Shown: in pieces, positions 6,510 through 25,560 of the stretch
How positions within the stretch are numbered: position 1 is the first letter of the stretch
How the letters are laid out: every line of letters starts with the position of its first letter
Assembly: GCA_021650915.1 (NCBI GenBank)
Contig: CP091279.1
Coordinates: 750,001 to 782,000 of the forward strand
DNA: 32,000 bases
From: Candidatus Brocadia sp.
Lineage (GTDB): Bacteria > Planctomycetota > Brocadiia > Brocadiales > Brocadiaceae
Direction: 5' to 3'
The notes under the pieces: generated by a model
Database searches by the model: none
The model's input: the letters and a program-made list of their open reading frames with translations, nothing else
What the model was told of the DNA's origin: nothing
Translations under genes and position numbers: made by a program

Positions 6510-9500
6510 ACAACATCGGCAAAAAAGAACGTGAAACCCAAAACAGGGTCATTGCCTTGTTCCAGGAAGAATTGGACTATCGCTACCTGGGCAATTGGGA
6601 AGACCGCCCGAACAACAGCAATATTGAAGAAGCAATTCTTCGCAAATATTTAAAAGAGAAAAAAGGCTATAAAAACACCCTTATCAGCAAGGCCTTATAT
6701 GAACTCGGCAAGGCGGCTAATAACCTGAACGATGGTTTATACAGCGCCAATAAAAAGGTATATCAACTGCTCCGTTACGGCGTAAAAGTCAAGTCAGAGG
6801 TCGGTGAAAACTATGAGACCGTTGAACTTATTGACTGGAAGCGCCCGCTTGAAAACGAATTTGCCATTGCCGAAGAAGTCACGATTCAGGGCAATAATGA
6901 AAAACGGCCGGATATTGTTATATACGTAAACGGCATAGCGCTTGGCGTATTGGAACTGAAACGGAGCACAATTTCCATAGGCGACGGTATCAGACAGAAT
7001 ATTGTCAACCAGCAGAAGGAATTTATCCAGTCCTTCTTTACCACCATCCAATGGGTATTTGCCGGGAATGATACCCAGGGGCTCCGCTATGGAACTATCG
7101 GCACACCTGAAAAATATTTTCTGAAGTGGAAGGAAGAAGGAGCGGGAGGAAATCTCCTTGATAAATACCTTTTAAAACTGTGCGATAAGGCGAGGTTTCT
7201 TGAAATCATCTACGACTTTACCCTGTTTGACGGAGGCAAGAAAAAATTGTGCCGTCCGCATCAATACTTTGGCATCAAGGCTGCACAGGGGCATGTGAAA
7301 AGACGAGAGGGCGGGATCATCTGGCATACGCAGGGCAGTGGTAAAAGCCTGGTAATGGTGTGGCTTGCCAAATGGATTCTTGAAAATAACCCCCATGCGC
7401 GCGTGGTGATTATTACCGACCGCGACGAGCTGGATAAACAGATAGAACGGATATTTACCGACGTTGGTGAACGCATGGCGCGCACCCGCAATGGCAGAGA
7501 CCTGATGGATCAACTGGGCAAGGCATTACCTCGCATGCTGTGTTCACTGGTGCATAAATTTGGCAGGAAGGGGGTCGATAATTTTGACGCATTCATTGAA
7601 GAAATAAAAAGGAGTTCCTCCCATACCGTGGGTGAGTTATTTATCTTCGTGGATGAATGCCACCGTACCCAATCGGGCAAGCTCCACAAAACGATGAAGG
7701 CAATATTAAAAAACGCCATCTTTATTGGCTTTACCGGAACGCCACTCTTAAAGCAAGATAGGCAAACCAGTCTGGAGGTATTTGGTAAATATATTCACAC
7801 TTATAAATTCAACGAGGCGGTGGATGATGAAGTGGTGCTGGATTTGGTGTACGAGGCCCGTGATATTGACCAGAAACTATCATCGCCTCAGAAGATAGAC
7901 GAATGGTTTGAGGCCAAGACCCGTGGTTTGAACGACTTTCAAAAATCTGAGCTCAAGAAGAGATGGGGCACGATGCAAAAGGTGCTGAGTTCCCGTTCCC
8001 GGCTGGAAAAGATTGTAAGCGACATCGTGTTCGATTTCAATGTAAAACCGCGTTTGAATTCGGACATGGGAAATGCCATGCTGGTGGCGTCAAGTATTTA
8101 TGAAGCATGCAGGTATTTTGAACTGTTTCAAACTACTGAATTGAAAGGCAAATGCGCCATTGTTACTTCATACAATCCGTCAACAAGGGATATAACAACG
8201 GAAGATACTGGCGCAAATACAGAAACGGAAAAGGAATATATCTACGACATCTATAAAACACTGCCTGGAAACAAGTCCACCGAGAAATACGAAGATGAAG
8301 CGAAGGAAAAGTTTGTAAAAGAGCCGTCAAACATGAAACTGCTTGTCGTGGTGGATAAACTCCTTACCGGGTTTGACGCGCCTCCCTGCACCTATCTCTA
8401 CATCGACAAAAGCATGCAGGATCATGGCTTATTTCAGGCTATCTGCAGGGTCAACCGGCTAGACAGCGATGACAAGGAGTTTGGTTACATCGTAGATTAT
8501 AAAGACCTGTTCAGGAAGGTTGAAAATGCCGTTGCTGTGTACACATCGGAACTTGATTATGATACATTTGAGAAAGGGGACGTGGATGTGTTATTAAAAG
8601 ACCGCCTGGAGAAAGGCAGGGAACGGCTGGACAATGCCCTGGAAGAAATAGCCTTATTATGCGAACCGGTAGCGCCGCCAAAAGACTCACTGGCGTATAT
8701 CCGCTACTTCTGTGGTGATCCGGAAAACGAAGAAGACCTGAAAGTCCATGAGGTAAAGAGAACCTCTCTTTATAAACAAACGGTGGCTGTGATACGCGCC
8801 TACGCCAATATCGCCGCGGAGATGGAAGAGGCAGGCTATACCCAGGCAGAGATTGCAGATATTAAAAAGAAAGTGGATTATTATCTGAAACTCAGAGAAG
8901 AAATCAGGAATGCCAGCGGAGAAACGCTCGATTTGAAGACCTATGAAGCCGATATGCGGCAGTTAATCGACACTTATATACAGGCGGAGGAATCCAGGAC
9001 AATTTCGCCTTTTGCGGATATGTCATTGCTGGATTTGCTTGTTAATTCCGGCATTGCTGATGCAATCAACCGTTTGCCCGAAGGAATTAAACGCAATAAA
9101 GAAGCAGTGGCGGAAACTATTGAAAACAACGTGCGGAAGAAGATCATGCAAGAGCATTTGACAGACCCTGCTTACTTTGAAGAAATGTCAAAGCTTTTGC
9201 ATGAAATTGTTAAAGAGAGAAGGACAAATGCCATCAATTATGAAGCATATTTAAAGAAGATCGCCGAATTGGCAAAGAAGGTAAGCAATCCTGCAAAGGA
9301 TAATTTGCCGGCAAGTATTAAAAGCAGTAACGCCAGACGGGCATTATACAATAACCTCAATTATGATGAGGAATTGGCTGTTGTAATGGACGAAGCCGTC
9401 AGATATGTAAAGAAGGCTGATTGGCGCGGAAATGACGCTAAAGAAAGAGAAATTAAAAAGGCGCTTTATGATATTCTGAAGGATGCCAATGAGGTAGAGC

Positions 9501-9538
9501 GTATTTTTCTGATCATAAAACAGCAGAGTGAGTATTGA
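6506..9538 (+). CDS. hsdR: Type I restriction-modification system, endonuclease/translocase subunit R
   Basis: N-terminal PD-(D/E)XK nuclease 'RPDIVIYVNGIALGVLELKRS'. Helicase motif I 'HTQGSGKSL', motif II 'VDECHRTQ', motif III 'FTGTPL'. 1010 aa. Confidence 0.93.
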   Translation: MNNIGKKERETQNRVIALFQEELDYRYLGNWEDRPNNSNIEEAILRKYLKEKKGYKNTLISKALYELGKAANNLNDGLYSANKKVYQLLRYGVKVKSEVGENYETVELIDWKRPLENEFAIAEEVTIQGNNEKRPDIVIYVNGIALGVLELKRSTISIGDGIRQNIVNQQKEFIQSFFTTIQWVFAGNDTQGLRYGTIGTPEKYFLKWKEEGAGGNLLDKYLLKLCDKARFLEIIYDFTLFDGGKKKLCRPHQYFGIKAAQGHVKRREGGIIWHTQGSGKSLVMVWLAKWILENNPHARVVIITDRDELDKQIERIFTDVGERMARTRNGRDLMDQLGKALPRMLCSLVHKFGRKGVDNFDAFIEEIKRSSSHTVGELFIFVDECHRTQSGKLHKTMKAILKNAIFIGFTGTPLLKQDRQTSLEVFGKYIHTYKFNEAVDDEVVLDLVYEARDIDQKLSSPQKIDEWFEAKTRGLNDFQKSELKKRWGTMQKVLSSRSRLEKIVSDIVFDFNVKPRLNSDMGNAMLVASSIYEACRYFELFQTTELKGKCAIVTSYNPSTRDITTEDTGANTETEKEYIYDIYKTLPGNKSTEKYEDEAKEKFVKEPSNMKLLVVVDKLLTGFDAPPCTYLYIDKSMQDHGLFQAICRVNRLDSDDKEFGYIVDYKDLFRKVENAVAVYTSELDYDTFEKGDVDVLLKDRLEKGRERLDNALEEIALLCEPVAPPKDSLAYIRYFCGDPENEEDLKVHEVKRTSLYKQTVAVIRAYANIAAEMEEAGYTQAEIADIKKKVDYYLKLREEIRNASGETLDLKTYEADMRQLIDTYIQAEESRTISPFADMSLLDLLVNSGIADAINRLPEGIKRNKEAVAETIENNVRKKIMQEHLTDPAYFEEMSKLLHEIVKERRTNAINYEAYLKKIAELAKKVSNPAKDNLPASIKSSNARRALYNNLNYDEELAVVMDEAVRYVKKADWRGNDAKEREIKKALYDILKDANEVERIFLIIKQQSEY

Positions 9539-9539
9539 T

Positions 9540-10241
9540 ATGCTGCAAATCAAATTGAGTAATTTACCTATTGATGTAATTCAAAAGGATATCAAGCATA
9601 TTCATCTGAGTGTTTATCCACCAATTGGCAGGGTAAGAATTTCCGCTCCCTTACGCATGGACCTGGAAACGATTCGGGTTTTCGCTCTATCAAAATTAAA
9701 TTGGATAAAGAAACAGCAGCAAAAGTTGCTCGACCAGGAACGAGAAACCCCAAGGGAATATGTAACACAGGAAAGCCATTACTACCTGGGCAAGCGATAC
9801 CTGATGAAAGTTATTGAGCATAATGCTGCTCCGAGAGTCGTTTTAAAGCACAGCGCTATTGAATTGTATATAAGACCTGATATAAGTAGAGAAAAAAAGC
9901 GGGCCGTTTTGGATGAATGGTATCGCCAAAAACTGAAGGAAATCGTTCCGGAATATATCGCCTACTGGAAGGAAAAGATGAAACTGGAAGGGATTGAGTA
10001 TGCCATAAAAAAGATGAAAACAAAATGGGGCACTTGTAATAGAGAGGCAAAAAGAATCTGGTTAAATCTTGAACTTGCCAAAAAGCCAAAGGAATGTATT
10101 GAATATATCATTGTGCATGAAATGGTGCATCTGTTAGAACGTCATCATAATGAAAGATTTATTGCGTACGTGGATAAGTATTTGCCAAAGTGGCGATTTT
10201 ATAAAGAGGGGTTGAATAAACGCCCGTTGGGCCATGAATAG
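9540..10241 (+). CDS. YgjP/DUF45-type M48-family zinc metallopeptidase
   Basis: HExxH zinc motif 'VHEMVHLLERHH' preceded by 'TKWGTCN'. ATG 9540 lies 1 nt after the hsdR stop. The ORF track allows GTG 9528. Confidence 0.8.
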   Translation: MLQIKLSNLPIDVIQKDIKHIHLSVYPPIGRVRISAPLRMDLETIRVFALSKLNWIKKQQQKLLDQERETPREYVTQESHYYLGKRYLMKVIEHNAAPRVVLKHSAIELYIRPDISREKKRAVLDEWYRQKLKEIVPEYIAYWKEKMKLEGIEYAIKKMKTKWGTCNREAKRIWLNLELAKKPKECIEYIIVHEMVHLLERHHNERFIAYVDKYLPKWRFYKEGLNKRPLGHE

Positions 10242-14936: not shown

Positions 14937-16370
14937 TTACATATGGATGGGTCTATCAATGACTGCGTGAGCAGCCTCCAGAATGGCCTCAGAGAGGGTA
15001 GGGTGGGGGAATATGGCGTTCGTCAGCTCGATTGCCGTTCCTTCCAAAATTGCCGAAAGAGACATACCCCACATCAATTCGCCCACATTGGGCCCTATGG
15101 CATGCATTCCTAATATCTCACCATATTTATCGTCCGCAATAATTTTTAAAAATCCTTCTTCAGATTCACCATCAATAATTGCCTTGCTGTTAGCAAGAAA
15201 GGGAAATTTTCCTATCCTGGTTTTATATCCTCTTTTAACCGCTTCTTCCTGGGTAAGACCCATACTTGCAACCTGTGGTGAACAATACGTCACGGCAGGT
15301 ATATTTTGATAATTTATTGGTGCGGTCTCTTTGCCTGCAAGGTGAGAGACGGCAAGAAGTCCTTGTTTTACTGCCTTGTGGGCAAGAAGAGGAGGGCCGG
15401 TAATATCTCCAATAGCAAAGACGCCTTTTTGGCTTGTTTCCATAACCTTATTCGTTTGCAGATATTTTCCCTGGTAAGTTAATGATAATTTTTCCAGTCC
15501 AATGTCCGCCAGGGCAGGATTTCTTCCTAATGCAAGGAGTAGATAATCGGCTTTGATGAATTCCTGATTTCCCCTGGTGGCAGGGGGGGGGATGATCTCA
15601 TCTTTTCTTTTTATCTCTGCTGTCACACCATTGCCGACGGTGACCTTTTCCAACGAGGCACTGGTTTGAGTTTCTATTCCTCTGTTGTTAAAAATTCTTT
15701 TTAACGTCGAACTTATCTCTTTATCTCCTGCGGGAAGGATGTCGGTAAAAAATTCAAGGATGGTTACCTTCGCTCCCAAAATATTGAGGAGATGGGCAAA
15801 TTCAACCCCAATGGCGCCACCACCCGCAATAACGATGGATTTAGGGATTTCCTCCCATACTAAGATATCATTGCTGGTAAGAACGTATTTACTGTCGTGC
15901 GGAATGTTACCGGGGATGAGTGGAACAGACCCTGTTGCCAGGATAATATTTTTTGTAATAATCCTGTTAACATCTGTTCCGTTTTTTTTGACTAAAACAG
16001 AATTTGGCGATATGATGTAACCTTCGCCGTGAAAAACCTCAACTCGATTTTTTTTGAGAAGAAACTGGACTCCGTGAAACAGTCTTGCAACGACGTCCTC
16101 TTTTCTCCGGTGCAACTGTGCATAATTAATTTCTGCTTTATCGACCGTAATGCCAAATTCTTTTGCTCTCAGAAAGCGCACATAAAGATCCGCTGCGTGG
16201 AGAAGCACCTTTGTCGGAATACAACCCCGATGCAAACAGACGCCACCCACCTTATCCTTTTCGATAAGAGCAGTTTTTATTCCAAGTTGAGCGGCTCTTA
16301 TAGCCGCTCCATAACCGCCTGGTCCACCACCAATGATTGCAAGATCAAAGGCAGAGTCTCCCCCGGTCAA
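14937..16370 (-). CDS. lpdA: Dihydrolipoyl dehydrogenase (E3) / pyridine nucleotide-disulfide oxidoreductase
   Basis: FAD site 'DLAIIGGGPGGYGAAIRAAQLG'. Redox disulfide 'GGVCLHRGCIPTK'. NAD site 'IAGGGAIGVEFA'. C-terminal 'HPTLSEA'. TTG start 16370 is preceded by AAGGAGGG. Confidence 0.9.
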   Translation of the reverse strand: MTGGDSAFDLAIIGGGPGGYGAAIRAAQLGIKTALIEKDKVGGVCLHRGCIPTKVLLHAADLYVRFLRAKEFGITVDKAEINYAQLHRRKEDVVARLFHGVQFLLKKNRVEVFHGEGYIISPNSVLVKKNGTDVNRIITKNIILATGSVPLIPGNIPHDSKYVLTSNDILVWEEIPKSIVIAGGGAIGVEFAHLLNILGAKVTILEFFTDILPAGDKEISSTLKRIFNNRGIETQTSASLEKVTVGNGVTAEIKRKDEIIPPPATRGNQEFIKADYLLLALGRNPALADIGLEKLSLTYQGKYLQTNKVMETSQKGVFAIGDITGPPLLAHKAVKQGLLAVSHLAGKETAPINYQNIPAVTYCSPQVASMGLTQEEAVKRGYKTRIGKFPFLANSKAIIDGESEEGFLKIIADDKYGEILGMHAIGPNVGELMWGMSLSAILEGTAIELTNAIFPHPTLSEAILEAAHAVIDRPIHM

Positions 16371-16499
16371 TTATCCCTCCTTTTTCCATGTGAAAAGAAT
16401 AACGAAAATGAGTGCAATAGCGACAATCATAATCGCCTTTGGGCTAATATCAGGAATGATTGATTTTTCCATAGACAATGACAACAATTTACCGATCAT
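16371..16499 (-). CDS. Possible 42-aa single-pass membrane peptide, translationally coupled to lpd
   Basis: Hand translation: MIGKLLSLSMEKSIIPDISPKAIMIVAIALIFVILFTWKKEG*. GGAGGT lies 9 nt before ATG 16499. The TAA stop (16373-16371) abuts the lpd TTG start. Confidence 0.4.
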   Translation of the reverse strand: MIGKLLSLSMEKSIIPDISPKAIMIVAIALIFVILFTWKKEG

Positions 16500-16585
16500 G
16501 ATAATTTTACCTCCTTATTTAAAGCGGAAAGATTTTTAGCGTACATCAATTGGATTTCCACCGAACATCAAAACTATAATACAAA

Positions 16586-16615
16586 GGCACATCAGCGATA
16601 ACACATTGATGTGCC
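16586..16615 (-). terminator. Intrinsic terminator of the lipid operon
   Basis: GGCACATCA-12 nt-TGATGTGCC is followed on the minus strand by TTTGTATTATAGTTTT. It lies 39 nt after the radical SAM stop codon. Confidence 0.55.
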
Positions 16616-16653
16616 TCTGCAATCGCCTTTCAAGAAGGCTGAATGTGCTGGTA

Positions 16654-18114
16654 TTATGTAGAAACCGTTTCCATTATGGGTTTCGAAACCGTTACCGCAC
16701 TTGATTTATAGCAATCCTTATAGTAGTCGCCAGAATCATATAACTCTTTCAAATTTAGCAACACCTGTTCAAACACTTGTTTCCAATCGGAACCCACCCT
16801 GAAAGCAAACATGGAATTCCGGGGATTTTTCGTTGTCTTAATAGAATTCCTGAAGCGCGTCCGTAAGTTATCACCTGCATAAACATGATCATATACATAT
16901 TGCATACCCTCGATAAAATCTTCTAACGTCATGTCAACGAGGCGGTGAACAACATGAGCCGTGTCATAATATTGCCAGTCCTCAGGATAATTCTTTCTGA
17001 AAATCCTCTTTTCTGAATCCAGTCTTGAATAAAGCTGTGTTTTTGGGAATGGGCAGTTGATTCCAAAGGTAAGGATATCAATATTATTTTCCAGGATAAA
17101 CTCGGTCATTCTCTTAAAGGAATCTTTATCGTCTCCGTCCGCACCAAACACTACGGAACCCCATACGACTAAGCCTGCGTTATGTATTTTTTGGATGCAA
17201 TCAAAATAACTATCTGTGCCTAATTTAAGATTTACCCGCTTATTCATCTTCTCCAAAACCGCCTCATTGGTAGATTCAATACCGATAAGCATGCCAAAGT
17301 TACCGCTCTTGGCCATATAGTCTAAAGTCTCAGCATCCTGGGAAATATTTAAGGCCGTGAATCCCAACCAGTCTTTGTGTATGCCACGGTCTACCATTCC
17401 TTTAAAAAGATCCCGCGCCCTCTCATTTGACTTTTTACCGTGCCCATAGAAGTTATCCTCTGCAAGCATTAAACCCTTATAATCTGTTGCGGCCATCTCA
17501 TCGAGAACATCTTCATAAGGTCTTTCCCTGAACTTTCTGCCCTGGAAAGTGGGCACACTACAGAAATCACAGTAGTTCGGACATCCTTTTGTTGTCACGA
17601 TAGAGGAAAACTTATAGTTATATTTTTTCTTCATAAGCTCCCGGTTTGGATATACCTTTTTCATCAGGCTGAGAGGCGGTAATCCTCCCTCATAAATCTT
17701 TTTCAGCTTTCCTGCTTCAAAATCTTTTATTACCTGAGGCCACACTTCTTCTGCTTCGCCGACAAAGACGGAGTCAACATAATTTGCTGCTTCTTCTGGC
17801 ATTACCGACGCATGTATCCCACCCATGATTACCGTCATGCCTTTCTTCCTGCAAGCCTCAGCAATTTTATAAGCACGAGGAGATTGGTAGGTAACTGCGG
17901 TAATACATACAAGATCAACAGGCTTAAAGGTAAGTTCTCCGTTATCATCAATTGCCAATTCCAGATTCTCATCAATAACATCAAAATCCCAATCGCCTGG
18001 TGTAAGCGCAGCAACATAAGCAAGATTCAGCGGCATTTGAACGATTACGGTAATACTCTCTTCACCATGCCTACCCGGTTTGTGTGGGTTAATCAACATC
18101 ATTTTTCTCTTCAT
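16654..18114 (-). CDS. B12-binding (class B) radical SAM enzyme
   Basis: Radical SAM cluster motif CxxxCxxC in 'TKGCPNYCDFCSV'. The N-terminal cobalamin-binding-type domain runs about 140 aa ('VCITAVTYQSPRAYKIAEACRKKGMTVIMGGIHAS'). GGAGGT lies 6 nt before the ATG, inside the upstream gene end. Confidence 0.88.
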   Translation of the reverse strand: MKRKMMLINPHKPGRHGEESITVIVQMPLNLAYVAALTPGDWDFDVIDENLELAIDDNGELTFKPVDLVCITAVTYQSPRAYKIAEACRKKGMTVIMGGIHASVMPEEAANYVDSVFVGEAEEVWPQVIKDFEAGKLKKIYEGGLPPLSLMKKVYPNRELMKKKYNYKFSSIVTTKGCPNYCDFCSVPTFQGRKFRERPYEDVLDEMAATDYKGLMLAEDNFYGHGKKSNERARDLFKGMVDRGIHKDWLGFTALNISQDAETLDYMAKSGNFGMLIGIESTNEAVLEKMNKRVNLKLGTDSYFDCIQKIHNAGLVVWGSVVFGADGDDKDSFKRMTEFILENNIDILTFGINCPFPKTQLYSRLDSEKRIFRKNYPEDWQYYDTAHVVHRLVDMTLEDFIEGMQYVYDHVYAGDNLRTRFRNSIKTTKNPRNSMFAFRVGSDWKQVFEQVLLNLKELYDSGDYYKDCYKSSAVTVSKPIMETVST

Positions 18115-18118
18115 AAAT

Positions 18119-19579
18119 TTACCTCCACTTCTCCTTCTCCATAATTAAATTAGCTACACCCCATCCAGAAGACACAACCGCACAAATTCCAGGACCAGGC
18201 CTCGTCCAATGACCGGTTAAATACAGATTTTCAACCGGTGTCTGAGGGGACAGTCTGTTCTCTCCTATTTGATCCACAGTAACCTCCCAGCCATAAGCGG
18301 CTCCATCGGTATTTAATGTGTATCGCTCCAAAGTTTTTGGGGTAGCTGCTTCGATTACTTCAATATAATTTTTTATATCAGGAACATATTTCTCTATCCG
18401 GCCTATTGTGTCCGCAGTCATGTTTTCTTTAAAAGATTTCCAATTTATAACATGTCTGTACTTCTCCTTCTCAAGATACACTACCACAGAAATTATTTGT
18501 TTGTCTGGCGGGGCAAGTGTTGGGCATATCATTGTTGGAATTGAAACGTACAACCACACCGTATCTTTGTAACTTGCATCAGAAGCAGTATGATAAAATC
18601 CTCTTTTTAATTCACGTAAATCTGCGCCTTTACCAATACCTAAATATAAAAGAAAAAAGGAGCAACTTTCCCTCATCTCTTCAATATTTTTAAGAAACGC
18701 GGTGTCTAATTTTCCGTCCAACAATTCAAAAAAAGTCTTTCGGGCATCGATATTTGAAATAACGAGATTTGAGGATAGTTCTTTCCCTTCCTGCAACTTG
18801 ACACCAACCGCAGCGTTGTTGGTGCGTATGATTTTTTCGGCTTTGCATGATAGCATAACATGCCCGCCTAAATCAATAAATTTCTTAAAAAAGGCATTAG
18901 CAAACTCTTGCGTACCTCCTGCAGGAAAAAAAGCGCCATCTTTGAGATAGTTGATCATCATTTGACACATACCGATAGCAGAAGCTTTAGTAGGGGGGAG
19001 ACCTATGTAGCCCCATTGGCCGGAAAGTATCATCTTGAGCTCGTCATTATGGAGAAAAGCATTGAGCATCGCACCATACGTCTGGTCTCTGTATTTATCA
19101 AGAATTTGGCTTTTTTCGTTATTAAAGGTAGCGCGGTAGAGTTTTAGAAAATCCTGAAAGAAATGCTTGATACCATCCTTTTCCAATGGGTAACGATCTT
19201 GCAACCGCGCGATGTATTCGTCCAAATCGGCCGGGATTTCAATGGTAAAGTTGGGAAAAATCAAATGGTCCATGGGATCGAGAAGATGAAAATCCATCTC
19301 TATCCCCAAGGTTTTCAGACAACGCCCCACAATCCCCCATTTCCCACAGCCCCCAATATGATGAACTGCCGCATCAAAATTGAAACCTTTTCTTTTAAAG
19401 GAGGTACAATAACCGCCAGGAATGGAATGGTGTTCAATGATAAGCACCTTTTTCCCGGCCTTGGCAAGAACTGTGCCGCAAACCAAGCCAGCAACGCCTG
19501 CACCAATTACAATCGCATCATAATGAGGATACAATGCATCCTTTTTTGTAGATTGAATGCATCGGCTGGAAGGTGTCAT
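18119..19579 (-). CDS. FAD-dependent oxidoreductase of the phytoene desaturase (CrtI/CrtD, COG1233-like) family
   Basis: Dinucleotide fold 'YDAIVIGAGVAGLVCGTVLAKAGKKVLIIE' followed by 'GGYCTSF'. C-terminal 'LYLTGHWTRPGPGI' block. The start lies 3 nt after the upstream stop. Confidence 0.85.
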   Translation of the reverse strand: MTPSSRCIQSTKKDALYPHYDAIVIGAGVAGLVCGTVLAKAGKKVLIIEHHSIPGGYCTSFKRKGFNFDAAVHHIGGCGKWGIVGRCLKTLGIEMDFHLLDPMDHLIFPNFTIEIPADLDEYIARLQDRYPLEKDGIKHFFQDFLKLYRATFNNEKSQILDKYRDQTYGAMLNAFLHNDELKMILSGQWGYIGLPPTKASAIGMCQMMINYLKDGAFFPAGGTQEFANAFFKKFIDLGGHVMLSCKAEKIIRTNNAAVGVKLQEGKELSSNLVISNIDARKTFFELLDGKLDTAFLKNIEEMRESCSFFLLYLGIGKGADLRELKRGFYHTASDASYKDTVWLYVSIPTMICPTLAPPDKQIISVVVYLEKEKYRHVINWKSFKENMTADTIGRIEKYVPDIKNYIEVIEAATPKTLERYTLNTDGAAYGWEVTVDQIGENRLSPQTPVENLYLTGHWTRPGPGICAVVSSGWGVANLIMEKEKWR

Positions 19580-19582
19580 GAA

Positions 19583-20824
19583 TTACGGTTTGTATTTGGA
19601 GATAATTAAAGACGAATTGTTTCCCAATCGCGAGAAGGTGTTGATAAGGACATTTTTGACGGGTAATACCCTTGCGGTATTGGCTACATAATCTAAATCA
19701 CAGTCGGGGTCCCGTTCCTTATAGTTAATGGTGGGAGGCACGGTGTGAGCGTTGATAGACATTACAGCGGCTATTGTTTGCAATGCCCCGGATGCGTCAT
19801 AGCATTCTCCTGTCATAGATTTAATAGCACTTACAGGAATAAGCTGTGCGCGCATACCAAAAACTTCTTTCATAACCTGGGTTTCCATTGCGTCGCCGTA
19901 GATACCAGAATAAGCATTTGCTGATATGTAAGAAATGTCATTCAGCGTCAGGTTTGCATCCTGAATGGCGCTCATGATGGCTCTTTTGTTGCCGTCTATT
20001 TGATAGTCCTTACTAATAGCCATTTTCGGGTCAAACGCAGTCCCATATCCCTTTATTTCTGCATAAATAGGCGCATTCCGTTTCAAGGCATCCTCAAGAG
20101 TTTCCAGAATAACCAGGGCAGAAGCCTCGCCAATAACCATTCCATTGCGTCTTTTGTCAAAGGGCGCAGAGATTTCCTCATTTCCTTCCCTACTCCCCGA
20201 TAATATCCGTGAATTGTGAGCTCCCCAAAAGATGTCGTGCGTTAATCCATGCACGCCACCGGCAATTACGGCCTTTACCCGACCCATCCGAAGAAAATCT
20301 GAGGCATAAATAATTGCATCAACGCTGCTGGTTACCCCATTCGATATGGTGGTATTCAACCCCGTGGCCTTACAAAAGATAGAGGCGCGGCTGGCAGGTG
20401 CATTCAATACCGTATTCGGAAAATCCATAGGATTAACATAATTAGGACCTTCACGCAAGGATTGAAAATCGAAAGAGCTAATGCTATCAATACTTCCATA
20501 CGTCGAACCAACAACGATTCCCAGTTCATCGCCGTTGTATGTATTATTTTCTAAGTTAGCATCCTTTATGGCAAGGACGGTGGCAGAAGACACGAGCAGG
20601 GAGGTTCTGTCGATATGACGTATTCCCTTTTGCCCCAAGTATACCTTTGCGTCAAAATCAGAAATTTCGCCCGCCTGTTTGCTTTTAAATTTACTTACAT
20701 CAAATAAGGTGATGGGTTTAATGCCTGATACACCATTGGCTAAATTTTTCCAAAAAATCTCTTTTTGATTTCCAATCGGTGAGATAACAGAAACACCGGT
20801 AATAACGATCCTTGTTTTTTCCAT
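19583..20824 (-). CDS. Ketosynthase paralogue lacking the Cys-His-His triad (chain-length-factor-like)
   Basis: Full-length thiolase-fold alignment to the adjacent FabF. TACAAG is replaced by NGVTSS (Cys to Val), AHGTGT by ANAYSG (His to Asn), and GHTMGA by GECYDA (His to Glu). ATG 20824 has AGAGG 6 nt upstream; the track starts at GTG 20827. Confidence 0.85.
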   Translation of the reverse strand: MEKTRIVITGVSVISPIGNQKEIFWKNLANGVSGIKPITLFDVSKFKSKQAGEISDFDAKVYLGQKGIRHIDRTSLLVSSATVLAIKDANLENNTYNGDELGIVVGSTYGSIDSISSFDFQSLREGPNYVNPMDFPNTVLNAPASRASIFCKATGLNTTISNGVTSSVDAIIYASDFLRMGRVKAVIAGGVHGLTHDIFWGAHNSRILSGSREGNEEISAPFDKRRNGMVIGEASALVILETLEDALKRNAPIYAEIKGYGTAFDPKMAISKDYQIDGNKRAIMSAIQDANLTLNDISYISANAYSGIYGDAMETQVMKEVFGMRAQLIPVSAIKSMTGECYDASGALQTIAAVMSINAHTVPPTINYKERDPDCDLDYVANTARVLPVKNVLINTFSRLGNNSSLIISKYKP

Positions 20825-20875
20825 CACGAACCTCTGTTTATCGATACGTATACAGCTCCGAGAAACTGCCTGATT

Positions 20876-22108
20876 TCAAGTCTTGCCAGTAAATTTTTTA
20901 ACCACCAAACAACTATTGTTACCACCAAATGCATGGGCATTGTTCAGTGCAATGGTAACCTTCTGCTTTCTTGCAATATTAGGCACATAATCCAAATCAC
21001 ACTCCGGATCAGGTGTTTCATAATTGATCGTAGGAGGTATGATGTCGTTTTGAACAACCAGGGCGCAGGTAATAGCTTCTATAGCACTGGCCGCACCCAT
21101 CGTATGACCCATCATCGATTTTATCGAACTAATCGCGAGATGCTCAGGTTTATTCCCAAAGACCTTTTTAATAGAGATCGTTTCTGCTTTATCATTAGCA
21201 GGGGTTCCCGTACCGTGTGCACTCACATATTGGACATCTCCGGGCTGAAGATGTGCGCTTTTTAGGGCCTTTTTCATAGCGGAAACAACACCTTCCCCAT
21301 CTGGGTGAGGGATGGTAATGTGATATGCGTCACAGCTAAGGCCGTAACCAATAATTTCCGCATAAATATTGGCATTTCTCTGTATCGCATGATCAAGCGA
21401 TTCTAAAAGAAGCATGCCAGCGCCCTCGCCAACCATCATTCCCTTCCGATTTTTATCAAATGGCTGGCATATTTCAGGTGCAATGGCGCCTAATCTCGCA
21501 AATCCTGTGTAAGCAACTTTTGAAAAAGGATCGGAACCTCCGGCGACCATCAGATCCACCCGGCCAAATTTAATCAAATCATATGCATACCCAATTGCAT
21601 AATTGCCGGCAGCACAAGCAGTAGGAATAATCGTGTTTGGTCCCTTAAATCCAAACTCAATTGCAACATTTGCTGGAATATTATTACAGGGGTGCATCAA
21701 AAAGAGATCGGGGTCTACCTTGTCCTCTCCGTCTTTGTGTCTGATATAATTGACTTTTTCCAGAATCTGTATTTCTCCTGCCGTCGTCCCAACAGACACG
21801 CCAATTCTTTCCAAAGCAGTCTTACCTAAATCAAGCCCGGCGTCATCCAAAGCAAGTCGCGTAGCTGCGATCGCAAACTGAGAACCCTTACCAATTTTCT
21901 TGAGAACGCCATTCTTAATATAATCAGAATACTTGAAGTTTTTCACCTCACATCCCTTGTGAACCTTATATTCTGAAGTGTCAATACACGATACATCATC
22001 TACTCCAGAAGCACCCGCAATAAGGTTACTCCAAAATCCTTCCTTTCCCGATCCAATGGGAGTAATCATTCCTACACCAGTAATAACAACACGTTTATTC
22101 ATAAGCAA
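20876..22108 (-). CDS. fabF: 3-oxoacyl-ACP synthase II-type ketosynthase (intact active site)
   Basis: Active-site Cys '[14 protein letters not shown]'. His motifs '[15 protein letters not shown]' and '[13 protein letters not shown]'. The start is TTG 22108 or ATG 22102. Confidence 0.9.
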
Positions 22109-22119
22109 TTATACTATGA

Positions 22120-22575
22120 TCAATCAGATATTAATGCGTTCTTGTCTGCAATTCCAAAAGTCAAAGTTGCTTTAGCAACCGACTTATCTCCGACTTTTAC
22201 CATTGCCTGAACAATGGCCCCTTTGGATACAATCTTTTCTACCAAAATCTCTATAACGAGTTGATCGCCTGGAAAAACGGGTTTTGTAAATCTGGCATTG
22301 TTCACTGAAGCTAATAAAAAAACCGAATCCCCAGTGATTTGTGTGGAAAGACTTTTCCTGAAAAGGATAATGGAGGCTTGAGCCATCGCCTCTATAATCA
22401 ATACACCAGGCATGATCGCAAAGTCGGGGAAATGTCCAACAAAGACAGGTTCATTGCCGGAGACATTCTTTACACAAACAATCCTTTTCCCTTCTTCAAA
22501 CTCAACAGCTTTATCGATGAACAAAAATGGATATTTTTGAGGAAGAAGAGACCGTATTTCCTCAAAAAAAATCAT
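22120..22575 (-). CDS. fabZ: 3-hydroxyacyl-ACP dehydratase
   Basis: 'LPQKYPFLFIDKA' and 'GHFPDFAIMPGVLIIEAMAQ' (catalytic His and Glu). 151 aa. Confidence 0.9.
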   Translation of the reverse strand: MIFFEEIRSLLPQKYPFLFIDKAVEFEEGKRIVCVKNVSGNEPVFVGHFPDFAIMPGVLIIEAMAQASIILFRKSLSTQITGDSVFLLASVNNARFTKPVFPGDQLVIEILVEKIVSKGAIVQAMVKVGDKSVAKATLTFGIADKNALISD

Positions 22576-22647: not shown

Positions 22648-22917
22648 TTACGAAGAAAGTTTTCCACTTTCCGCCAGAACAGATTTTGTTAAATCAATGG
22701 TTGCGCTTAAACACGTAATGTCAACCAGTTTTTCTTCAGGAATTTGCACCTTAAATTTTTTTTCAATAAGCGCCAGGATTTCAAGGGCTAAAAGGGAGTC
22801 TATTTCAAGATCTTTAAAGAAGTTTGCATCTCTTTTATCCCAAATTTCTTTTTCGTCCAATTCTGTGACCTCTGCAACTATCGCAGTTACACCTTTCTCA
22901 ATTTCTTCTGCGTTCAA
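22648..22917 (-). CDS. acpP: Acyl carrier protein (dedicated)
   Basis: Phosphopantetheine attachment motif 'LEIDSLLALEI'. 89 aa. TTG start 22917 has AAGGAGGAG 8 nt upstream. Confidence 0.88.
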   Translation of the reverse strand: MNAEEIEKGVTAIVAEVTELDEKEIWDKRDANFFKDLEIDSLLALEILALIEKKFKVQIPEEKLVDITCLSATIDLTKSVLAESGKLSS

Positions 22918-23000: not shown

Positions 23001-23029
23001 ATATTAGCAGACGGAATTTATAATGTCAA
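23001..23029 (-). promoter_or_regulatory. Predicted sigma70-type promoter of the ACP-to-radical-SAM operon
   Basis: On the minus strand: TTGACA (23029-23024), 17 nt, TAATAT (23006-23001), about 84 nt upstream of the ACP start. Confidence 0.4.
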
Positions 23030-23160: not shown

Positions 23161-23772
23161 CTACCTTAGCCCTTTTAACGACTTCTTTTCATAACGTAAT
23201 TCCCTTCGTCTGTATTTATCCAACTCTTTCAATGCCTTATATACCTGCATCTCTAGCATCGTTTCATATTTAGATAATTCCATACTTCCGTTTTTATTTT
23301 CCATCATCTTCATGGCCTTCAACTGTGAAAGCTCCTTATTTGTCCTCTTTCGCGTCCTCAGAAATCCTTGCTCATATTCCTGGATACAAGAGGTATTGTA
23401 TTCTATTATCTGGCTTTCTATTTTCAAACATCGTTTTAACCGCCAAATACTTGAAATTATGCGATCGACAATAAGCAATTCTATTGCATTAGATGGTTTC
23501 AATTCATTCACAAGCTTATTTCTTAACTCATCAAGGTCGGAACTTTTTTCCCCCTCTAGCAATATTTCACGACTAAATATATATTGGCTTGCATCATTCT
23601 CTCCTGGTTTCATTGACTCTGAGGATATATTATTTTTCATAGCCTCCGTCTTTAAAGGGCTTAATGTTCCGCTTGATTCAACAATGGTACTCATTATCCT
23701 ATCTACTTTTTCTTTAGCAGAAATCTCTTTACTTTTTCCGTGTAAAACATCCTCTTTTAAAATCGTTGACAT
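23161..23772 (-). CDS. Hypothetical protein (203 aa from ATG 23772; ORF open to TTG 23853)
   Basis: Long AT-rich ORF with no motif I recognise. GAGGGAG lies 6 nt before ATG 23772, and there is no SD at 23853. The C-terminal half is predicted helical ('ELLIVDRIISSIWRLKRCLKIESQ'). Confidence 0.5.
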   Translation of the reverse strand: MSTILKEDVLHGKSKEISAKEKVDRIMSTIVESSGTLSPLKTEAMKNNISSESMKPGENDASQYIFSREILLEGEKSSDLDELRNKLVNELKPSNAIELLIVDRIISSIWRLKRCLKIESQIIEYNTSCIQEYEQGFLRTRKRTNKELSQLKAMKMMENKNGSMELSKYETMLEMQVYKALKELDKYRRRELRYEKKSLKGLR

Positions 23773-24088
23773 TATCTTCTCCCTCTTAATAATATCAGTA
23801 TAATATCTTGCTAAAACATCACATACTATCTCATAATCAATGAAACTATTCAATAAAATATTTTAACATTTATGGATTTCGTCTCTTATCGTCATAAAAG
23901 ATGCTATACTGGGTGGGATCGGCAAATCAATCTATAATTACTACGAAAAAGAGTGACAAAAAATGGTGTGCCGCGTGGAATAAATGTGACACCACGGTGG
24001 TTTATGTTTACAAGCTTTAAAACGAATTGATACAAAAGATTCGATTTGTGAAGGGTTTGGTGCAGACGGGTCTCTGTTTGGCAAAACT

Positions 24089-24757
24089 TTATAACGCCGT
24101 TTTAGGATTGCCAAAAATATACTCTGTCTGTTCAGGTGGAATTGCACTACCAAGATCTGCAAGAAATTCATTGGCCAATTGTAAAGCACTCGCGATGCTA
24201 TCTTCTCTTGTAGGAATAGAAAGTCTGACCATTAAACCATTCCTCTTTTTGTTAATCAATGAGAACCATAACTGTTTTATTTTTTGTCCTGTCCAATCAA
24301 CAATATTTTTGTCAATACACATCCAATAAATCATCAAAAAACCCTCCGCATCCTTTTCAACGTACAGGCAGTATGCTCGAAGATCGCGATTTAAAACATG
24401 GAATTCGCTGTCATTTAATTCTGTCACTTTAAAGCCAGAGCTACTAGAACACACCTTTGGGTTGTGAAAATTGCCAGCATCCAGTATTAGCAAAAAAAGA
24501 CTATCGCCATCCTTGTTTATATACTCTCTATCCAATGTCTGGCTAATAAAAGCGTACTTTTCATCGTCGCTATTCCAATCTTGCTCAGCTTCAGTATCCG
24601 TTCCTAGCCATCCAGTAAATTCCAGTGGTATTTTGAGCTGAGAGATAATATTCTGACTTTCATATTTAGCCTTTGGAAAGGTAAAGCAATAAATGCTGGT
24701 AAATAGCAATATTGCAATCGTAATCCACCCCTTCTTGTTAATACTCATCGTGCACAT
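24089..24757 (-). CDS. epsI: Exosortase-associated EpsI-family protein
   Basis: N-terminal membrane anchor, then 'IPLEFTGWLGTD', 'LDREYINKDGDSLFLLI' and 'FHNPKVCSSSSGFKV' (the family H-x-P-x-x-C-x-x-x-x-G block). An alternative ATG at 24748 forms an ATGA overlap with the exosortase stop. Confidence 0.75.
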   Translation of the reverse strand: MCTMSINKKGWITIAILLFTSIYCFTFPKAKYESQNIISQLKIPLEFTGWLGTDTEAEQDWNSDDEKYAFISQTLDREYINKDGDSLFLLILDAGNFHNPKVCSSSSGFKVTELNDSEFHVLNRDLRAYCLYVEKDAEGFLMIYWMCIDKNIVDWTGQKIKQLWFSLINKKRNGLMVRLSIPTREDSIASALQLANEFLADLGSAIPPEQTEYIFGNPKTAL

Positions 24758-25560
24758 CTTTCTAGCATGAACTCTAATCCAATTAATCCCGACACAATAA
24801 AAACAAATATTACAATTCCGCTAAAACTATGAAAAAAACCCTGGCCGGTTTCTTCACCAAAATAATAGGTAATAAGGCATAATGCTATAATACGAATAAG
24901 ATTGCCTAGGACTGCAAAAGGAACTATGGAAGAAACGAGAATAGTTTTTCTGAATAAACTGCTCCTGCTTAGGTATACATAAACCAGAGACAAAGAAAAC
25001 ATCGTAATTATAGAACGAAAACCGCTACAGGGTTGTCCCATAAATAATTCGCTCTCTCCGATCGTTAATAAAAGTCCTTCTCTTGATATAGGAAAATGAA
25101 AAAATCCGAGAATTATTTCGGTCATCACGGAAAGGCCGTATCGCATTGGAAGTGTGAGATCATCCACAATTCCGATGGGAATGGGCACCAAAAGCAACAG
25201 ATATAAAAGAGGAAATAATACAATCCTTGTTGCCTGAAATCCGTAAAGATAGGTTGTCAGCCCTAATAAAACAGGGAGTAAAGAAAGTGTCGTTATAAAT
25301 GAATACTGCTGACGCCAGCCAAAAATAAACAATAGAATTCCAACAAGAAAGCCAAAAAATCCCATGAGATTGTGGTCAAGTCTAGATTTTTGAATTGCCT
25401 CCTTTAAGGTTGTTCGTTTCCTCCAGATAAGCCAAAAGAACACAGGCAAGATAAAATAGGCATGCGTATAATCGAAAGCCTTCCATTCAGAACGATAAAG
25501 GTTAAAAAAAAGCGGTGTATATAAGATAACTATCATCGCCCAAATTATATAATTAATCAT
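24745..25560 (-). CDS. Exosortase (polytopic membrane transpeptidase-like protein)
   Basis: 'WKAFDYTHAYFILPVFFWLIW' N-terminal signature. Catalytic Cys 'MGQPCSGFRSIITMFSL'. 'LPMRYG' Arg. 'FHSFSGIVIF' His. About 8 predicted TM helices. Confidence 0.85.
   Translation of the reverse strand: MINYIIWAMIVILYTPLFFNLYRSEWKAFDYTHAYFILPVFFWLIWRKRTTLKEAIQKSRLDHNLMGFFGFLVGILLFIFGWRQQYSFITTLSLLPVLLGLTTYLYGFQATRIVLFPLLYLLLLVPIPIGIVDDLTLPMRYGLSVMTEIILGFFHFPISREGLLLTIGESELFMGQPCSGFRSIITMFSLSLVYVYLSRSSLFRKTILVSSIVPFAVLGNLIRIIALCLITYYFGEETGQGFFHSFSGIVIFVFIVSGLIGLEFMLERCAR

What the first reader, a model, noticed from the sequence alone, without database searches (positions are those of the whole stretch)
16654..19579. 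Translationally coupled CrtI-like flavoprotein and B12-radical SAM pair at the operon end
The flavoprotein starts 3 nt after the KS* stop. The radical SAM gene starts 4 nt after the flavoprotein stop, and its SD (GGAGGT) lies inside the flavoprotein coding end. Class-B radical SAM enzymes are known for methylation or C-C bond chemistry at unactivated carbons. CrtI-family enzymes introduce or isomerise double bonds in long hydrophobic chains. Pairing the two behind an ACP-bound chain-building module implies desaturation followed by radical chemistry on an acyl chain. No characterised enzyme pair that I know of does this.
Basis: partly seen in the sequence, partly recalled or inferred. Interest (0 to 1): 0.65.

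Follow-up and report, generated by a model that had tools for sequence, protein, structure and literature searches.

The report
Known anammox ladderane-candidate flavoprotein/radical-SAM pair
The two coupled genes are real, but they are the already published, still uncharacterised "phytoene-dehydrogenase-like plus B12 radical SAM" tail of the candidate ladderane-lipid gene cluster of anammox bacteria (here Candidatus Brocadia fulgida), and the same cluster also turns up in uncultured non-anammox soil bacteria.

Summary
On the minus strand, a 486-aa CrtI-like flavoprotein (18119-19579) starts 3 nt after a catalytically dead ketosynthase. A 486-aa B12-domain radical SAM protein (16654-18114) starts 4 nt after the flavoprotein, with GGAGGT overlapping the flavoprotein stop.

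Both proteins are identical to Ca. Brocadia fulgida KKO19126.1 and KKO19125.1. The six genes ACP-FabZ-KS-KS*-PDH-rSAM are "Cluster I" (KustE3603-3608), the published candidate ladderane-lipid cluster of anammox bacteria. It remains untested, and some data weigh against its simplest form. So the pair is already known but uncharacterised.

New here:
- In 58 of 60 assessable metagenome loci seeded with the flavoprotein, the rSAM is the next gene (gap mostly -4 to +92 nt).
- The full six-gene architecture, dead KS* included, also occurs in high-GC (54-76%) uncultured Acidobacteriota, Myxococcota and Planctomycetota. This contradicts the published statement that the cluster is exclusive to ladderane producers.
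- In five of those high-GC loci a second rSAM-KS-KS* module is fused directly behind.
- Across the wider rSAM family, KS/KS* pairs are partners more often than the flavoprotein is.

The parts
22648..22917 (-). Acyl carrier protein (amxACP, Kuste3603 orthologue), first gene of the six-gene block
   Evidence: PF00550 at 51.7 bits. It is 77-98% identical in Brocadiales loci and 48-60% in high-GC loci.
22120..22575 (-). FabZ-like 3-hydroxyacyl-ACP dehydratase (amxFabZ, Kuste3604 orthologue)
   Evidence: PF07977 FabA-like. It scores 149.8 bits against TIGR01750 fabZ, just under the 155 cut-off. Orthologues also hit ApeI/ApeP-like Pfam families.
20876..22108 (-). Active ketosynthase (amxFabF2, Kuste3605 orthologue)
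   Evidence: Cys165/His298/Lys330/His335 are intact. It matches ketoacyl-synt N and C domains.
19583..20827 (-). Catalytically dead ketosynthase (amxFabFmut, Kuste3606 orthologue), the chain-length-factor-like partner
   Evidence: Val/Asn/Glu replace Cys/His/His. This is the same pattern as Kuste3606 in Table 2 of PMC2649909. It forms a heterodimer with FabF2 in B. fulgida (bioRxiv 10.64898/2026.05.19.726425).
18119..19579 (-). CrtI-like FAD flavoprotein ('PDH', Kuste3607 orthologue)
   Evidence: It is identical to KKO19126.1 of Ca. Brocadia fulgida. PF01593 and NAD_binding_8 match. It scores 168 bits against crtI_fam, below the 238 cut-off. It aligns full length to CrtI 4dgk. The family-specific motif FDAAVHHIGGCG is invariant in the anammox and high-GC clades.
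18121..18126 (-). Shine-Dalgarno GGAGGT for the rSAM gene, overlapping the end of the flavoprotein ORF and its stop codon
   Evidence: Read directly from the sequence. It lies 6 nt upstream of the ATG at 18114.
16654..18114 (-). B12-binding-domain radical SAM protein (Kuste3608 orthologue)
   Evidence: It is identical to KKO19125.1 and 87% identical to the K. stuttgartiensis protein that sits in the same six-gene context. PF02310 and PF04055 match. The CX3CX2C motif is at residues 178-185. The AlphaFold model has pLDDT 88, and its best fold matches are AprD4, MgmA, TsrM and TokK.
16580..16621 (-). Terminator-like hairpin 33 nt after the rSAM stop
   Evidence: RNA fold gives -30.8 kcal/mol and z -3.4, followed by a U-rich tail. 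The consensus scan missed it because the loop is too long.
23001..23029 (-). Promoter-like site upstream of the ACP gene (TTGACA-17-TAATAT with an upstream TG)
   Evidence: Consensus scan. This is a pattern match only.

Best explanation
These are the Candidatus Brocadia fulgida orthologues of Kuste3607 (phytoene-dehydrogenase-like flavoprotein, 'PDH') and Kuste3608 (class-B-type radical SAM). They are the last two genes of anammox 'Cluster I' (amxACP, amxFabZ, amxFabF2, amxFabFmut, PDH, rSAM), the leading candidate locus for ladderane lipid synthesis.

Most likely mechanism:
1. The KS/dead-KS heterodimer, amxFabZ and a ketoreductase acting in trans work like a highly reducing type II PKS. They build a short unsaturated chain on amxACP.
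2. The FAD enzyme changes the number, position or geometry of C=C bonds on that tethered chain.
3. The radical SAM enzyme abstracts a hydrogen with 5'-deoxyadenosyl radical and forms C-C bonds (ring closure). It probably works in concert with a paralogous rSAM-KS-KS* module encoded elsewhere in anammox genomes.

Shown here: gene identity, synteny, cofactor motifs, tight coupling, and conservation of the pair. Inferred: every chemical step, cobalamin use, and the link to ladderanes.
For: Identity:
- Both proteins are exact matches to B. fulgida proteins.
- The rSAM is 87% and the PDH 69% identical to Kuenenia proteins.
- K. stuttgartiensis CP049055.1 has the same ACP-FabZ-KS-KS-PDH-rSAM order.
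- The KS* residue pattern equals that of Kuste3606 (PMC2649909).

Functional coupling:
- The rSAM directly follows the PDH in 58 of 60 assessable loci, with gaps mostly from -4 to +92 nt, across 11 of 12 PDH clusters at 70% identity.

Cofactor features.

Literature:
- The cluster is conserved and highly expressed in anammox genera (PMC10139942, PMC4790861).
- FabF2/FabFmut form a KS/CLF-like heterodimer that decarboxylates malonyl-amxACP and prefers amxACP (bioRxiv 10.64898/2026.05.19.726425).
- Radical SAM ring formation coupled to chain growth has a precedent in Jaw5 (PMC13459092).

Link to the second module:
- In high-GC relatives a second rSAM-KS-KS* set is fused directly behind the pair (L088, L089, L090, L138, L140).
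- In L084 it sits next to the pair, divergently oriented.
Against: - No experiment links any Cluster I protein to ladderanes (PMC10139942).
- Kuste3603-3608 expressed anaerobically in E. coli changed no fatty acid, and Kuste3607 did not complement crtI (PMC4790861). That test is weak, because E. coli does not make cobalamin (own knowledge).
- amxFabZ and the FabF heterodimer prefer C6-C8 chains. This fits synthesis of the linear part of the lipid rather than the ladder (PMC10139942; bioRxiv preprint).
- The same six-gene architecture occurs in high-GC contigs labelled Acidobacteria, Myxococcota and Planctomycetota. No ladderanes are known from these groups.
- rSAM relatives at 55-62% identity also occur without a PDH: L086 (KS-KS-rSAM), L087 (rSAM-KS-KS-ECH-SDR-MIase) and L085 (alone).
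Confidence: 0.6

Rival explanations
1. The cluster, pair included, makes a non-ladderane product, such as a polyene or another modified acyl chain of a type II PKS-like pathway. That pathway is shared by several phyla, and its presence in anammox bacteria is not what specifies ladderanes.
For: - The complete architecture, including the dead KS*, is found in 54-76% GC contigs labelled Acidobacteria, Vicinamibacteria, Terriglobales, Myxococcota and Planctomycetota.
- Those clusters carry typical PKS-type extras: Polyketide_cyc2, a FabH/CHS-like gene, ECH and MIase (L090).
- Expression in E. coli gave no new fatty acid (PMC4790861).
- The closest structural homologue of amxFabF2 is the ishigamide polyene KS (bioRxiv preprint).
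Against: - The cluster is universal and highly expressed in all anammox genera (PMC10139942). That is unusual for an accessory metabolite.
- No alternative ladderane locus is known.
- The lipids of the high-GC carriers are unknown, so they might make related strained lipids.
Confidence: 0.25
2. The rSAM is a cobalamin-dependent C-methyltransferase, like most class B members. The pair would then make methyl-branched or methylene/cyclopropane intermediates. Examples are the mid-chain methyl fatty acids of anammox bacteria, or cyclopropyl precursors later rearranged to ladderanes. The flavoprotein would reduce or oxidise the product.
For: - The nearest solved sequence is the methylase MgmA, 9ccb.
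- NCBIfam neighbours include HpnR, PhpK and MgmA.
- Kuenenia annotators called it a BchQ-type methyltransferase.
- A cyclopropane-rearrangement route has been proposed (PMC10139942).
- The FAD-oxidoreductase plus methyltransferase logic resembles BfaA/BfaB in 10-methyl fatty acid synthesis (own knowledge, not tested).
Against: - All methylase families score far below their cut-offs.
- The best fold match is the non-methylating AprD4.
- A simple methylase would not need its own ACP, a KS/CLF pair and a dehydratase.
- Cyclopropyl fatty acids have not been detected in anammox bacteria (PMC10139942).
Confidence: 0.2
3. The flavoprotein, not the rSAM, is the ring-forming enzyme. It would reductively cyclise an ACP-bound polyene, as the CrtI-like PtmB2/IkaB enzymes do in polycyclic tetramate macrolactams. 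The rSAM would perform a preparatory or finishing step.
For: - CrtI homologues are proven polyene cyclases in PTM pathways (PMC5361873).
- Kuste3607 lacks CrtI activity (PMC4790861).
- A family-specific invariant His-His-x-x-x-Cys motif replaces the CrtI sequence next to the FAD site.
Against: - No sequence comparison with PTM cyclases could be made here.
- PTM cyclases make five- and six-membered rings by polar chemistry, not strained cyclobutanes.
- The rSAM is the more conserved partner: 94/80/75/58% against 77/58/53/43% for the PDH in the same loci.
Confidence: 0.1
4. The adjacency is incidental, and the two enzymes act in unrelated pathways.
For: - One locus (L136) has a PDH without an adjacent rSAM.
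- rSAM relatives exist without a PDH.
Against: - In 58 of 60 assessable loci the two genes share strand, order and near-zero spacing, often with overlapping stop and start codons. This holds across at least four phylum labels and 34-76% GC.
Confidence: 0.02

Closest known systems
Kuste3607/Kuste3608 of Kuenenia stuttgartiensis 'Cluster I' (KustE3603-3608), the putative ladderane cluster (PMC2649909, PMC4790861, PMC10139942)
   Same: Gene order, sizes and tight spacing are the same, and the KS* residue pattern matches. The rSAM is 87% and the PDH 69% identical. The same 42-aa ORF and lpd lie downstream.
   Different: Only the species differs (Ca. Brocadia fulgida). Nothing differs functionally.
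Anammox kuste2803-2805-type module (B12-rSAM + FabF + non-canonical FabB/F)
   Same: The rSAM is a 52-53% identical paralogue, again tied to an active KS plus a dead KS (L002, L004, L084).
   Different: It has no flavoprotein, ACP or FabZ. In anammox genomes it lies at a separate locus, but in L088, L089, L090, L138 and L140 a module with the same gene content is fused directly behind the PDH-rSAM pair.
CrtI / CrtISO / CrtD carotenoid desaturase-isomerase family (TIGR02734; PDB 4dgk, 4rep)
   Same: It shares the FAD Rossmann GxGxxG motif, the full-length fold-level alignment and the C-terminal GHWT.PGPG motif region.
   Different: It scores below the family cut-off (168 vs 238 bits). FDAAVHHIGGCG replaces the CrtI FDAGPTVIT segment. 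The Kuenenia orthologue cannot replace CrtI (PMC4790861). The genomic context is ACP/KS, not isoprenoid.
CrtI-like cyclases of polycyclic tetramate macrolactams (PtmB2, IkaB; PMC5361873)
   Same: These are phytoene-dehydrogenase homologues that act on polyketide polyene chains and form carbocycles. They show that the family is not limited to desaturation.
   Different: Their substrate is a released PKS/NRPS tetramate. They form 5- and 6-membered rings and have no rSAM partner. The sequence relationship was not tested here.
Non-methylating and methylating class B radical SAM enzymes (AprD4 6fd2, MgmA 9ccb, TsrM, TokK, CysS, OxsB, BchE)
   Same: They share an N-terminal Rossmann (B12-type) domain plus a CX3CX2C TIM barrel. 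Foldseek gives E 1e-19 to 1e-13 and TM 0.59-0.68.
   Different: Identity is only 12-19%. The protein is a member of no curated equivalog. The substrate is presumably an ACP-bound lipid.
Highly reducing type II PKS systems with KS/CLF plus FabZ-like enzymes (ishigamide, aryl polyene, cispentacin AmcF/AmcE; PMC10698177, PMC8358021)
   Same: They combine an active KS, a dead partner, a discrete ACP and an ApeI/ApeP- or AmcE-like dehydratase. NCBIfam AmcF scores 245 bits and AmcE 100 bits as sub-threshold hits.
   Different: None of these has a CrtI-like plus B12-rSAM tail.
Jaw5/C10P radical SAM cyclopropanase with an iterative PKS (jawsamycin; PMC13459092)
   Same: It is a functional analogy: a radical SAM enzyme installs contiguous small rings while a ketosynthase extends the chain.
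   Different: It is a HemN-like rSAM, not class B. It makes cyclopropanes from the SAM methyl carbon and works with a type I PKS.

Membership tests
Anammox Cluster I (KustE3603-3608) PDH/rSAM orthologues | Orthologue-level identity to the Kuenenia/Brocadia proteins | tested here: met
   Exact match to Ca. B. fulgida KKO19125.1 and KKO19126.1. 87% (rSAM) and 69% (PDH) identity to Kuenenia.
Anammox Cluster I (KustE3603-3608) PDH/rSAM orthologues | Six-gene order ACP-FabZ-KS-KS*-PDH-rSAM | tested here: met
   Seen in the window, in K. stuttgartiensis CP049055.1 and in dozens of Brocadiales loci.
Anammox Cluster I (KustE3603-3608) PDH/rSAM orthologues | Second KS lacks the Cys-His-His triad | tested here: met
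   Val/Asn/Glu, as in Kuste3606 (PMC2649909, Table 2).
Anammox Cluster I (KustE3603-3608) PDH/rSAM orthologues | Cluster found exclusively in ladderane producers (claimed in PMC10139942) | tested here: not met
   The same architecture occurs in 54-76% GC contigs labelled Acidobacteria, Vicinamibacteria, Terriglobales, Myxococcota and Planctomycetota. The lipids and anammox genes of those organisms were not testable.
Anammox Cluster I (KustE3603-3608) PDH/rSAM orthologues | Participation in ladderane synthesis | not testable with these tools
   No experimental link exists in the literature either (PMC10139942, PMC13459092).
Class B (cobalamin-dependent) radical SAM | CX3CX2C motif for the SAM-binding [4Fe-4S] cluster | tested here: met
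   C178/C182/C185 are invariant in 17 homologues. PF04055 scores 51.1 bits against a 29.5 cut-off.
Class B (cobalamin-dependent) radical SAM | N-terminal B12-binding Rossmann domain | tested here: met
   PF02310 scores 42.1 bits against a 32.1 cut-off, over residues 28-127. The model places a beta-alpha domain before the barrel, with pLDDT 88.
Class B (cobalamin-dependent) radical SAM | Actual cobalamin binding and use | not testable with these tools
   The top fold match, AprD4, has the domain but to my knowledge no cobalamin. The next matches (MgmA, TsrM, TokK, OxsB) do bind it.
Characterised class B equivalogs (TIGR04072 rSAM_ladder_B12, HpnJ, HpnR, BchE, PhpK, MgmA) | Score at or above the NCBIfam curated cut-off | tested here: not met
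   Best is TIGR04072 at 90.6 bits against 360. HpnJ scores 82.7 against 578, HpnR 80.8 against 650 and BchE 69.8 against 481.
CrtI/phytoene desaturase family (TIGR02734) | Score at or above the family cut-off | tested here: not met
   168.1 bits against 238.1. Carotenoid isomerase scores 173.2 against 586.9.
CrtI/phytoene desaturase family (TIGR02734) | FAD-binding fold aligned over the full length to CrtI | tested here: met
   The profile against 4dgk gives E 4e-44 over residues 21-478. PF01593 scores 53.7 bits against 19.8.
CrtI/phytoene desaturase family (TIGR02734) | Phytoene desaturase activity | not tested
   Literature only: Kuste3607 did not restore lycopene when it replaced crtI (PMC4790861).
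KS/CLF-type (type II PKS-like) chain-building module upstream | An active KS adjacent to a triad-less partner, with a discrete ACP and dehydratase | tested here: met
   The heterodimer was shown for the B. fulgida proteins in bioRxiv 10.64898/2026.05.19.726425.

The most novel reading that the evidence does not exclude
The PDH-rSAM pair with its KS/dead-KS partner is an old module that crosses phylum boundaries and performs radical carbocyclisation of ACP-bound chains. On this reading, uncultured Acidobacteriota, Myxococcota and non-anammox Planctomycetota that carry the full cluster make ladderane-like strained-ring lipids. In five of those loci the cluster is fused with a second rSAM-KS-KS* set into one operon. 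That fused operon would define the minimal gene set that has been missing from heterologous reconstitution attempts. The milder version is much more likely (about 0.8): Cluster I is not exclusive to ladderane producers, which contradicts the literature.
Probability: 0.15. Interest if true: 0.8.

Novelty: already known. Interest (0 to 1): 0.4.

Why it matters
How ladderane lipids are made has been an open question in lipid biochemistry for about twenty years. This pair is the prime suspect for the ring-forming chemistry. Rediscovering it adds nothing by itself.

Two results from the comparative work here may help:
- The pair's adjacency is close to invariant, so the two enzymes should be assayed together.
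- The full cluster exists outside anammox bacteria, sometimes as one fused operon that includes the second rSAM/KS/KS* module. This questions the 'exclusive to ladderane producers' argument used to implicate the cluster. It also suggests that Cluster I and the kuste2803-type module should be expressed together, in a host able to supply B12.

Tried and rejected
- **Genome scan with the rSAM alignment.** Only four Brocadiales loci were returned, so it cannot be used to count genomes or to find cultured carriers.
- **Structure prediction of the flavoprotein.** A 13-sequence alignment gave pLDDT 54. The model was discarded and no fold search was run on it.
- **Consensus terminator scan.** It found nothing after the rSAM gene. 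A direct fold did find a hairpin.
- **Literature search for CrtI-like enzymes in cinnamoyl or type II PKS pathways.** It returned nothing, so that remembered lead was dropped. The PTM cyclase precedent was found instead.
- **NJ tree of rSAM homologues.** It separates the anammox kuste2803-type paralogues. It does not sort the high-GC first and second rSAM copies cleanly by genomic context. I therefore describe the fused second module by gene content only, not as a proven orthologue.
- **Membership in TIGR04072 'rSAM_ladder_B12'.** Considered and rejected: 90.6 bits against a 360 cut-off.
- **L129 and L134 gap values.** The values -131 and -1464 are artefacts of my ORF extension. The tblastn coordinates show direct adjacency in both loci.


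Full report
**Observation**

The finding spans two minus-strand ORFs of 486 aa each, 18119-19579 and 16654-18114.
- The upstream ketosynthase-like ORF (19583-20827) ends in TAA. Three bases (TTC) later the flavoprotein ATG follows.
- The flavoprotein ends in TAA at 18121-18119. Four bases (ATTT) later the radical SAM ATG follows.
- GGAGGT at 18126-18121 overlaps the last two sense codons and the stop, 6 nt before the ATG.

Pfam gives Radical_SAM plus B12-binding for the distal protein. It gives Amino_oxidase/NAD_binding_8 for the proximal one. Further upstream it identifies ketoacyl-synthase twice, a FabA/FabZ-like dehydratase and a PP-binding ACP. The rSAM carries C178-x3-C182-x2-C185. The second KS has Val/Asn/Glu where the first has Cys/His/His. 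The description is therefore accurate.

'Operon end' is reasonable. A strong hairpin (16580-16621, -30.8 kcal/mol, z -3.4) with a U-rich tail begins 33 nt after the rSAM stop. The simple terminator scan missed it.

**What it is**

Both proteins are exact matches to Candidatus Brocadia fulgida KKO19125.1 (rSAM) and KKO19126.1 ('putative phytoene dehydrogenase').
- The nearest rSAM relatives come from Brocadia (95%), Kuenenia (87%) and other Brocadiales.
- The nearest flavoprotein relatives come from Brocadia, Jettenia, Kuenenia (69%) and Scalindua (58%).
- In the complete K. stuttgartiensis genome the 87% orthologue sits in the same ACP-FabZ-KS-KS-PDH-rSAM block.

This block is the published 'Cluster I', KustE3603-3608. 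Kuste3607 is annotated as phytoene desaturase, Kuste3608 as SAM radical enzyme and Kuste3606 as the non-canonical FabF with Val163/Asn298/Glu333 (PMC2649909; PMC4790861; PMC10139942; bioRxiv 10.64898/2026.05.19.726425). The preprint used the B. fulgida proteins themselves. It showed that the two FabF homologues form a KS/chain-length-factor-like heterodimer.

**State of knowledge**

This is the hypothesis of Rattray et al. 2009, and it is repeated in every later paper. A 2026 review still lists the rSAM's role as unknown (PMC13459092). The published tests are negative or indirect:
- Kuste3603-3608 expressed anaerobically in E. coli changed no fatty acid.
- Kuste3607 did not replace CrtI in a lycopene pathway (PMC4790861).
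- Neither polyunsaturated nor cyclopropyl fatty acids have been found in anammox bacteria.
- amxFabZ and the FabF heterodimer prefer short chains (PMC10139942; preprint).

So the pair is known, named and targeted, but uncharacterised.

**Family placement of the two proteins**

The rSAM matches no curated NCBIfam equivalog. Its best hit is TIGR04072 'rSAM_ladder_B12' at 90.6 bits against a cut-off of 360. HpnJ, HpnR, PhpK, MgmA and BchE follow, all far below threshold.
- By sequence, the nearest solved structure is the methylase MgmA, 9ccb, at E 8e-12.
- A confident AlphaFold model (pLDDT 88) matches AprD4 best (E 1e-19, TM 0.68). MgmA, TsrM, TokK, CysS and OxsB come next.
- The architecture is that of class B radical SAM enzymes. 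Cobalamin use and the type of chemistry cannot be read from it.

The flavoprotein aligns full length with CrtI 4dgk (profile E 4e-44) and CrtD 4rep.
- It scores below the crtI_fam cut-off (168 vs 238 bits) and far below that of carotenoid isomerase.
- It carries a family-specific invariant segment, FDAAVHHIGGCG, where CrtI has FDAGPTVIT.
- CrtI homologues do not only desaturate. PtmB2 cyclises a polyketide polyene (PMC5361873).

**Do the two genes stay together?**

A metagenome scan seeded with a flavoprotein alignment returned 72 loci.
- In 60 of them sequence continues far enough past the PDH stop to judge.
- In 58 of those the next gene on the same strand is the rSAM. The gaps run mostly from -4 to +92 nt, and several have overlapping ATGA junctions.
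- Full-length PDHs from 66 loci (these plus L001, L003, L081, L084 and L088-L090) fall into 35 clusters at 90% identity and 12 at 70%. Eleven of the 12 have the adjacent rSAM.
- The exceptions are L136 and L158. In L136 the PDH is followed by a divergent ROK-family gene, and an extra YjbQ-like ORF sits before the PDH. L158 holds only a PDH fragment.
- The rSAM is consistently the more conserved partner: 94/80/75/58% identity against 77/58/53/43% for the PDH in the same loci.

**The converse is weaker**

rSAM relatives at 52-62% identity occur without a flavoprotein:
- followed by KS plus dead KS (L002, L004, the second cluster of L084, and L087). This is the gene content of the separate anammox kuste2803-2805 module;
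- after a KS/KS pair (L086);
- alone (L085).

The more frequent companion of this rSAM family is therefore a KS/dead-KS pair. The flavoprotein belongs to one sub-architecture.

**Distribution beyond anammox bacteria**

Papers state that Cluster I is found exclusively in ladderane producers (PMC10139942; preprint abstract). The data here disagree.
- Loci L081-L083, L088-L090, L138-L145, L147, L152, L154, L156, L160 and L161 have 54-76% GC. Anammox loci have 34-52%.
- Where enough sequence is present, these loci carry the same ACP-FabZ-KS-KS*-PDH-rSAM order. Identities to the window proteins are 48-60, 41-50, 52-58, 30-38, 37-46 and 56-62%.
- In the five examined, the second KS also lacks all three catalytic residues.
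- Source labels for identical or clustered proteins are Acidobacteria bacterium 13_1_40CM_2_60_7, Terriglobales, Vicinamibacteria, Myxococcota and Planctomycetota. All are metagenome-assembled; no cultured carrier was seen.
- A search starting from the Acidobacteria PDH finds about 36 protein clusters at 57-100% identity. The next-best hits are the anammox PDHs at 43-47%. The two clades are thus each other's closest relatives.
- In L088, L089/L141, L090, L138 and L140 a second rSAM and a second KS/KS* pair follow the pair directly in the same orientation.
- In the low-GC L084 the two modules are divergent neighbours.

This argues that Cluster I and the kuste2803-type module belong to one pathway. 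I could not test whether the high-GC organisms have hydrazine synthase or cyclobutane lipids. 'Ladderane' calls by antiSMASH in other phyla have been noted before without analysis of this architecture (PMC7298704).

**Mechanism**

I commit to the following, at about 0.6 overall. Identity with Kuste3607/3608 is about 0.97. The two enzymes acting on the same ACP-bound intermediate is about 0.75. Ladderane as the end product in anammox bacteria is about 0.5.
1. The KS/CLF-like heterodimer primes by decarboxylating malonyl-amxACP and extends the chain.
2. A trans FabG and amxFabZ leave an enoyl or polyenoyl thioester.
3. The flavoprotein re-sets double-bond number or geometry.
4. The rSAM abstracts a hydrogen and closes C-C bonds, probably iteratively and together with the paralogous rSAM/KS/KS* module.

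Only the gene-level facts are shown; the chemistry is inferred.

The rivals are:
- a non-ladderane product of a pathway shared across phyla (0.25);
- a plain B12 methyltransferase making branched or cyclopropyl intermediates (0.2);
- the flavoprotein as the cyclase (0.1);
- chance adjacency (0.02).

**Verdict**

Novelty is 'already known'. The added value lies in three results:
- the near-invariant PDH-rSAM adjacency;
- the more frequent KS/KS* partnership of the rSAM family;
- the presence of the full cluster, sometimes fused with the second module, in non-anammox lineages.

Noticed in passing
window 16371-16499 (-): A 42-aa ORF (MIGKLLSLSMEKSIIPDISPKAIMIVAIALIFVILFTWKKEG) lies between the rSAM gene and lpd. 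It has one hydrophobic, helix-like segment and its own GGAGG. Its stop codon abuts the TTG start of lpd. It is 85-95% identical in 17 Brocadia/Kuenenia/Jettenia-type loci, which makes it more conserved than the PDH or Lpd. It stays next to lpd when the spacer to the rSAM grows. It is called as a gene in K. stuttgartiensis CP049055.1.
   Followed up: partly
L088 5338-15838; L090 4101-21437; L089/L141; L138; L140: High-GC (57-70%) metagenome or MAG loci carry one long operon: ACP-DH-KS-KS*-PDH-rSAM-rSAM-KS-KS*(-SDR). L090 adds FGE-sulfatase-like, Polyketide_cyc2, ferredoxin, ECH and MIase genes, a third KS pair and a FabH/CHS-like gene.
   Followed up: partly
L084 3035-17668: On a 5.1-Mb, 34% GC contig, Cluster I and an rSAM-KS-KS*-OYE-like-ECH-SDR-MIase module are divergent neighbours. 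A third rSAM copy (77% identical to the window rSAM) lies 9 kb further on.
   Followed up: no
L136 8327-12613: This is the only full-length Cluster I-type locus without an adjacent rSAM. The PDH is followed by a divergent ROK-family gene. A 151-aa YjbQ-like ORF is inserted between KS* and the PDH.
   Followed up: no
L029 7828-11122: A Thermodesulfobacteriota MAG has a distant PDH (33%) directly upstream of a distant B12-rSAM (34%), with no KS genes detected nearby. This may be an independent or ancestral version of the pair.
   Followed up: no
window 14937-16370 (-) and related loci: Dihydrolipoyl dehydrogenase follows the cluster in Brocadia/Kuenenia/Jettenia-type loci (62-79% identity). It does not follow in Scalindua-type or high-GC loci.
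   Followed up: partly
window 1158-10241 (+): A type I restriction-modification system (hsdM, hsdS, hsdR). A DUF1016/YhcG PDDEXK nuclease gene is inserted between hsdM and hsdS, an unassigned 188-aa ORF lies before hsdR, and a YgjP-like metallopeptidase lies after it.
   Followed up: no
window 23161-25560 (-): Upstream of the ACP lie a 230-aa ORF with no Pfam or NCBIfam match, then DUF3485 and an EpsH-type exosortase.
   Followed up: no
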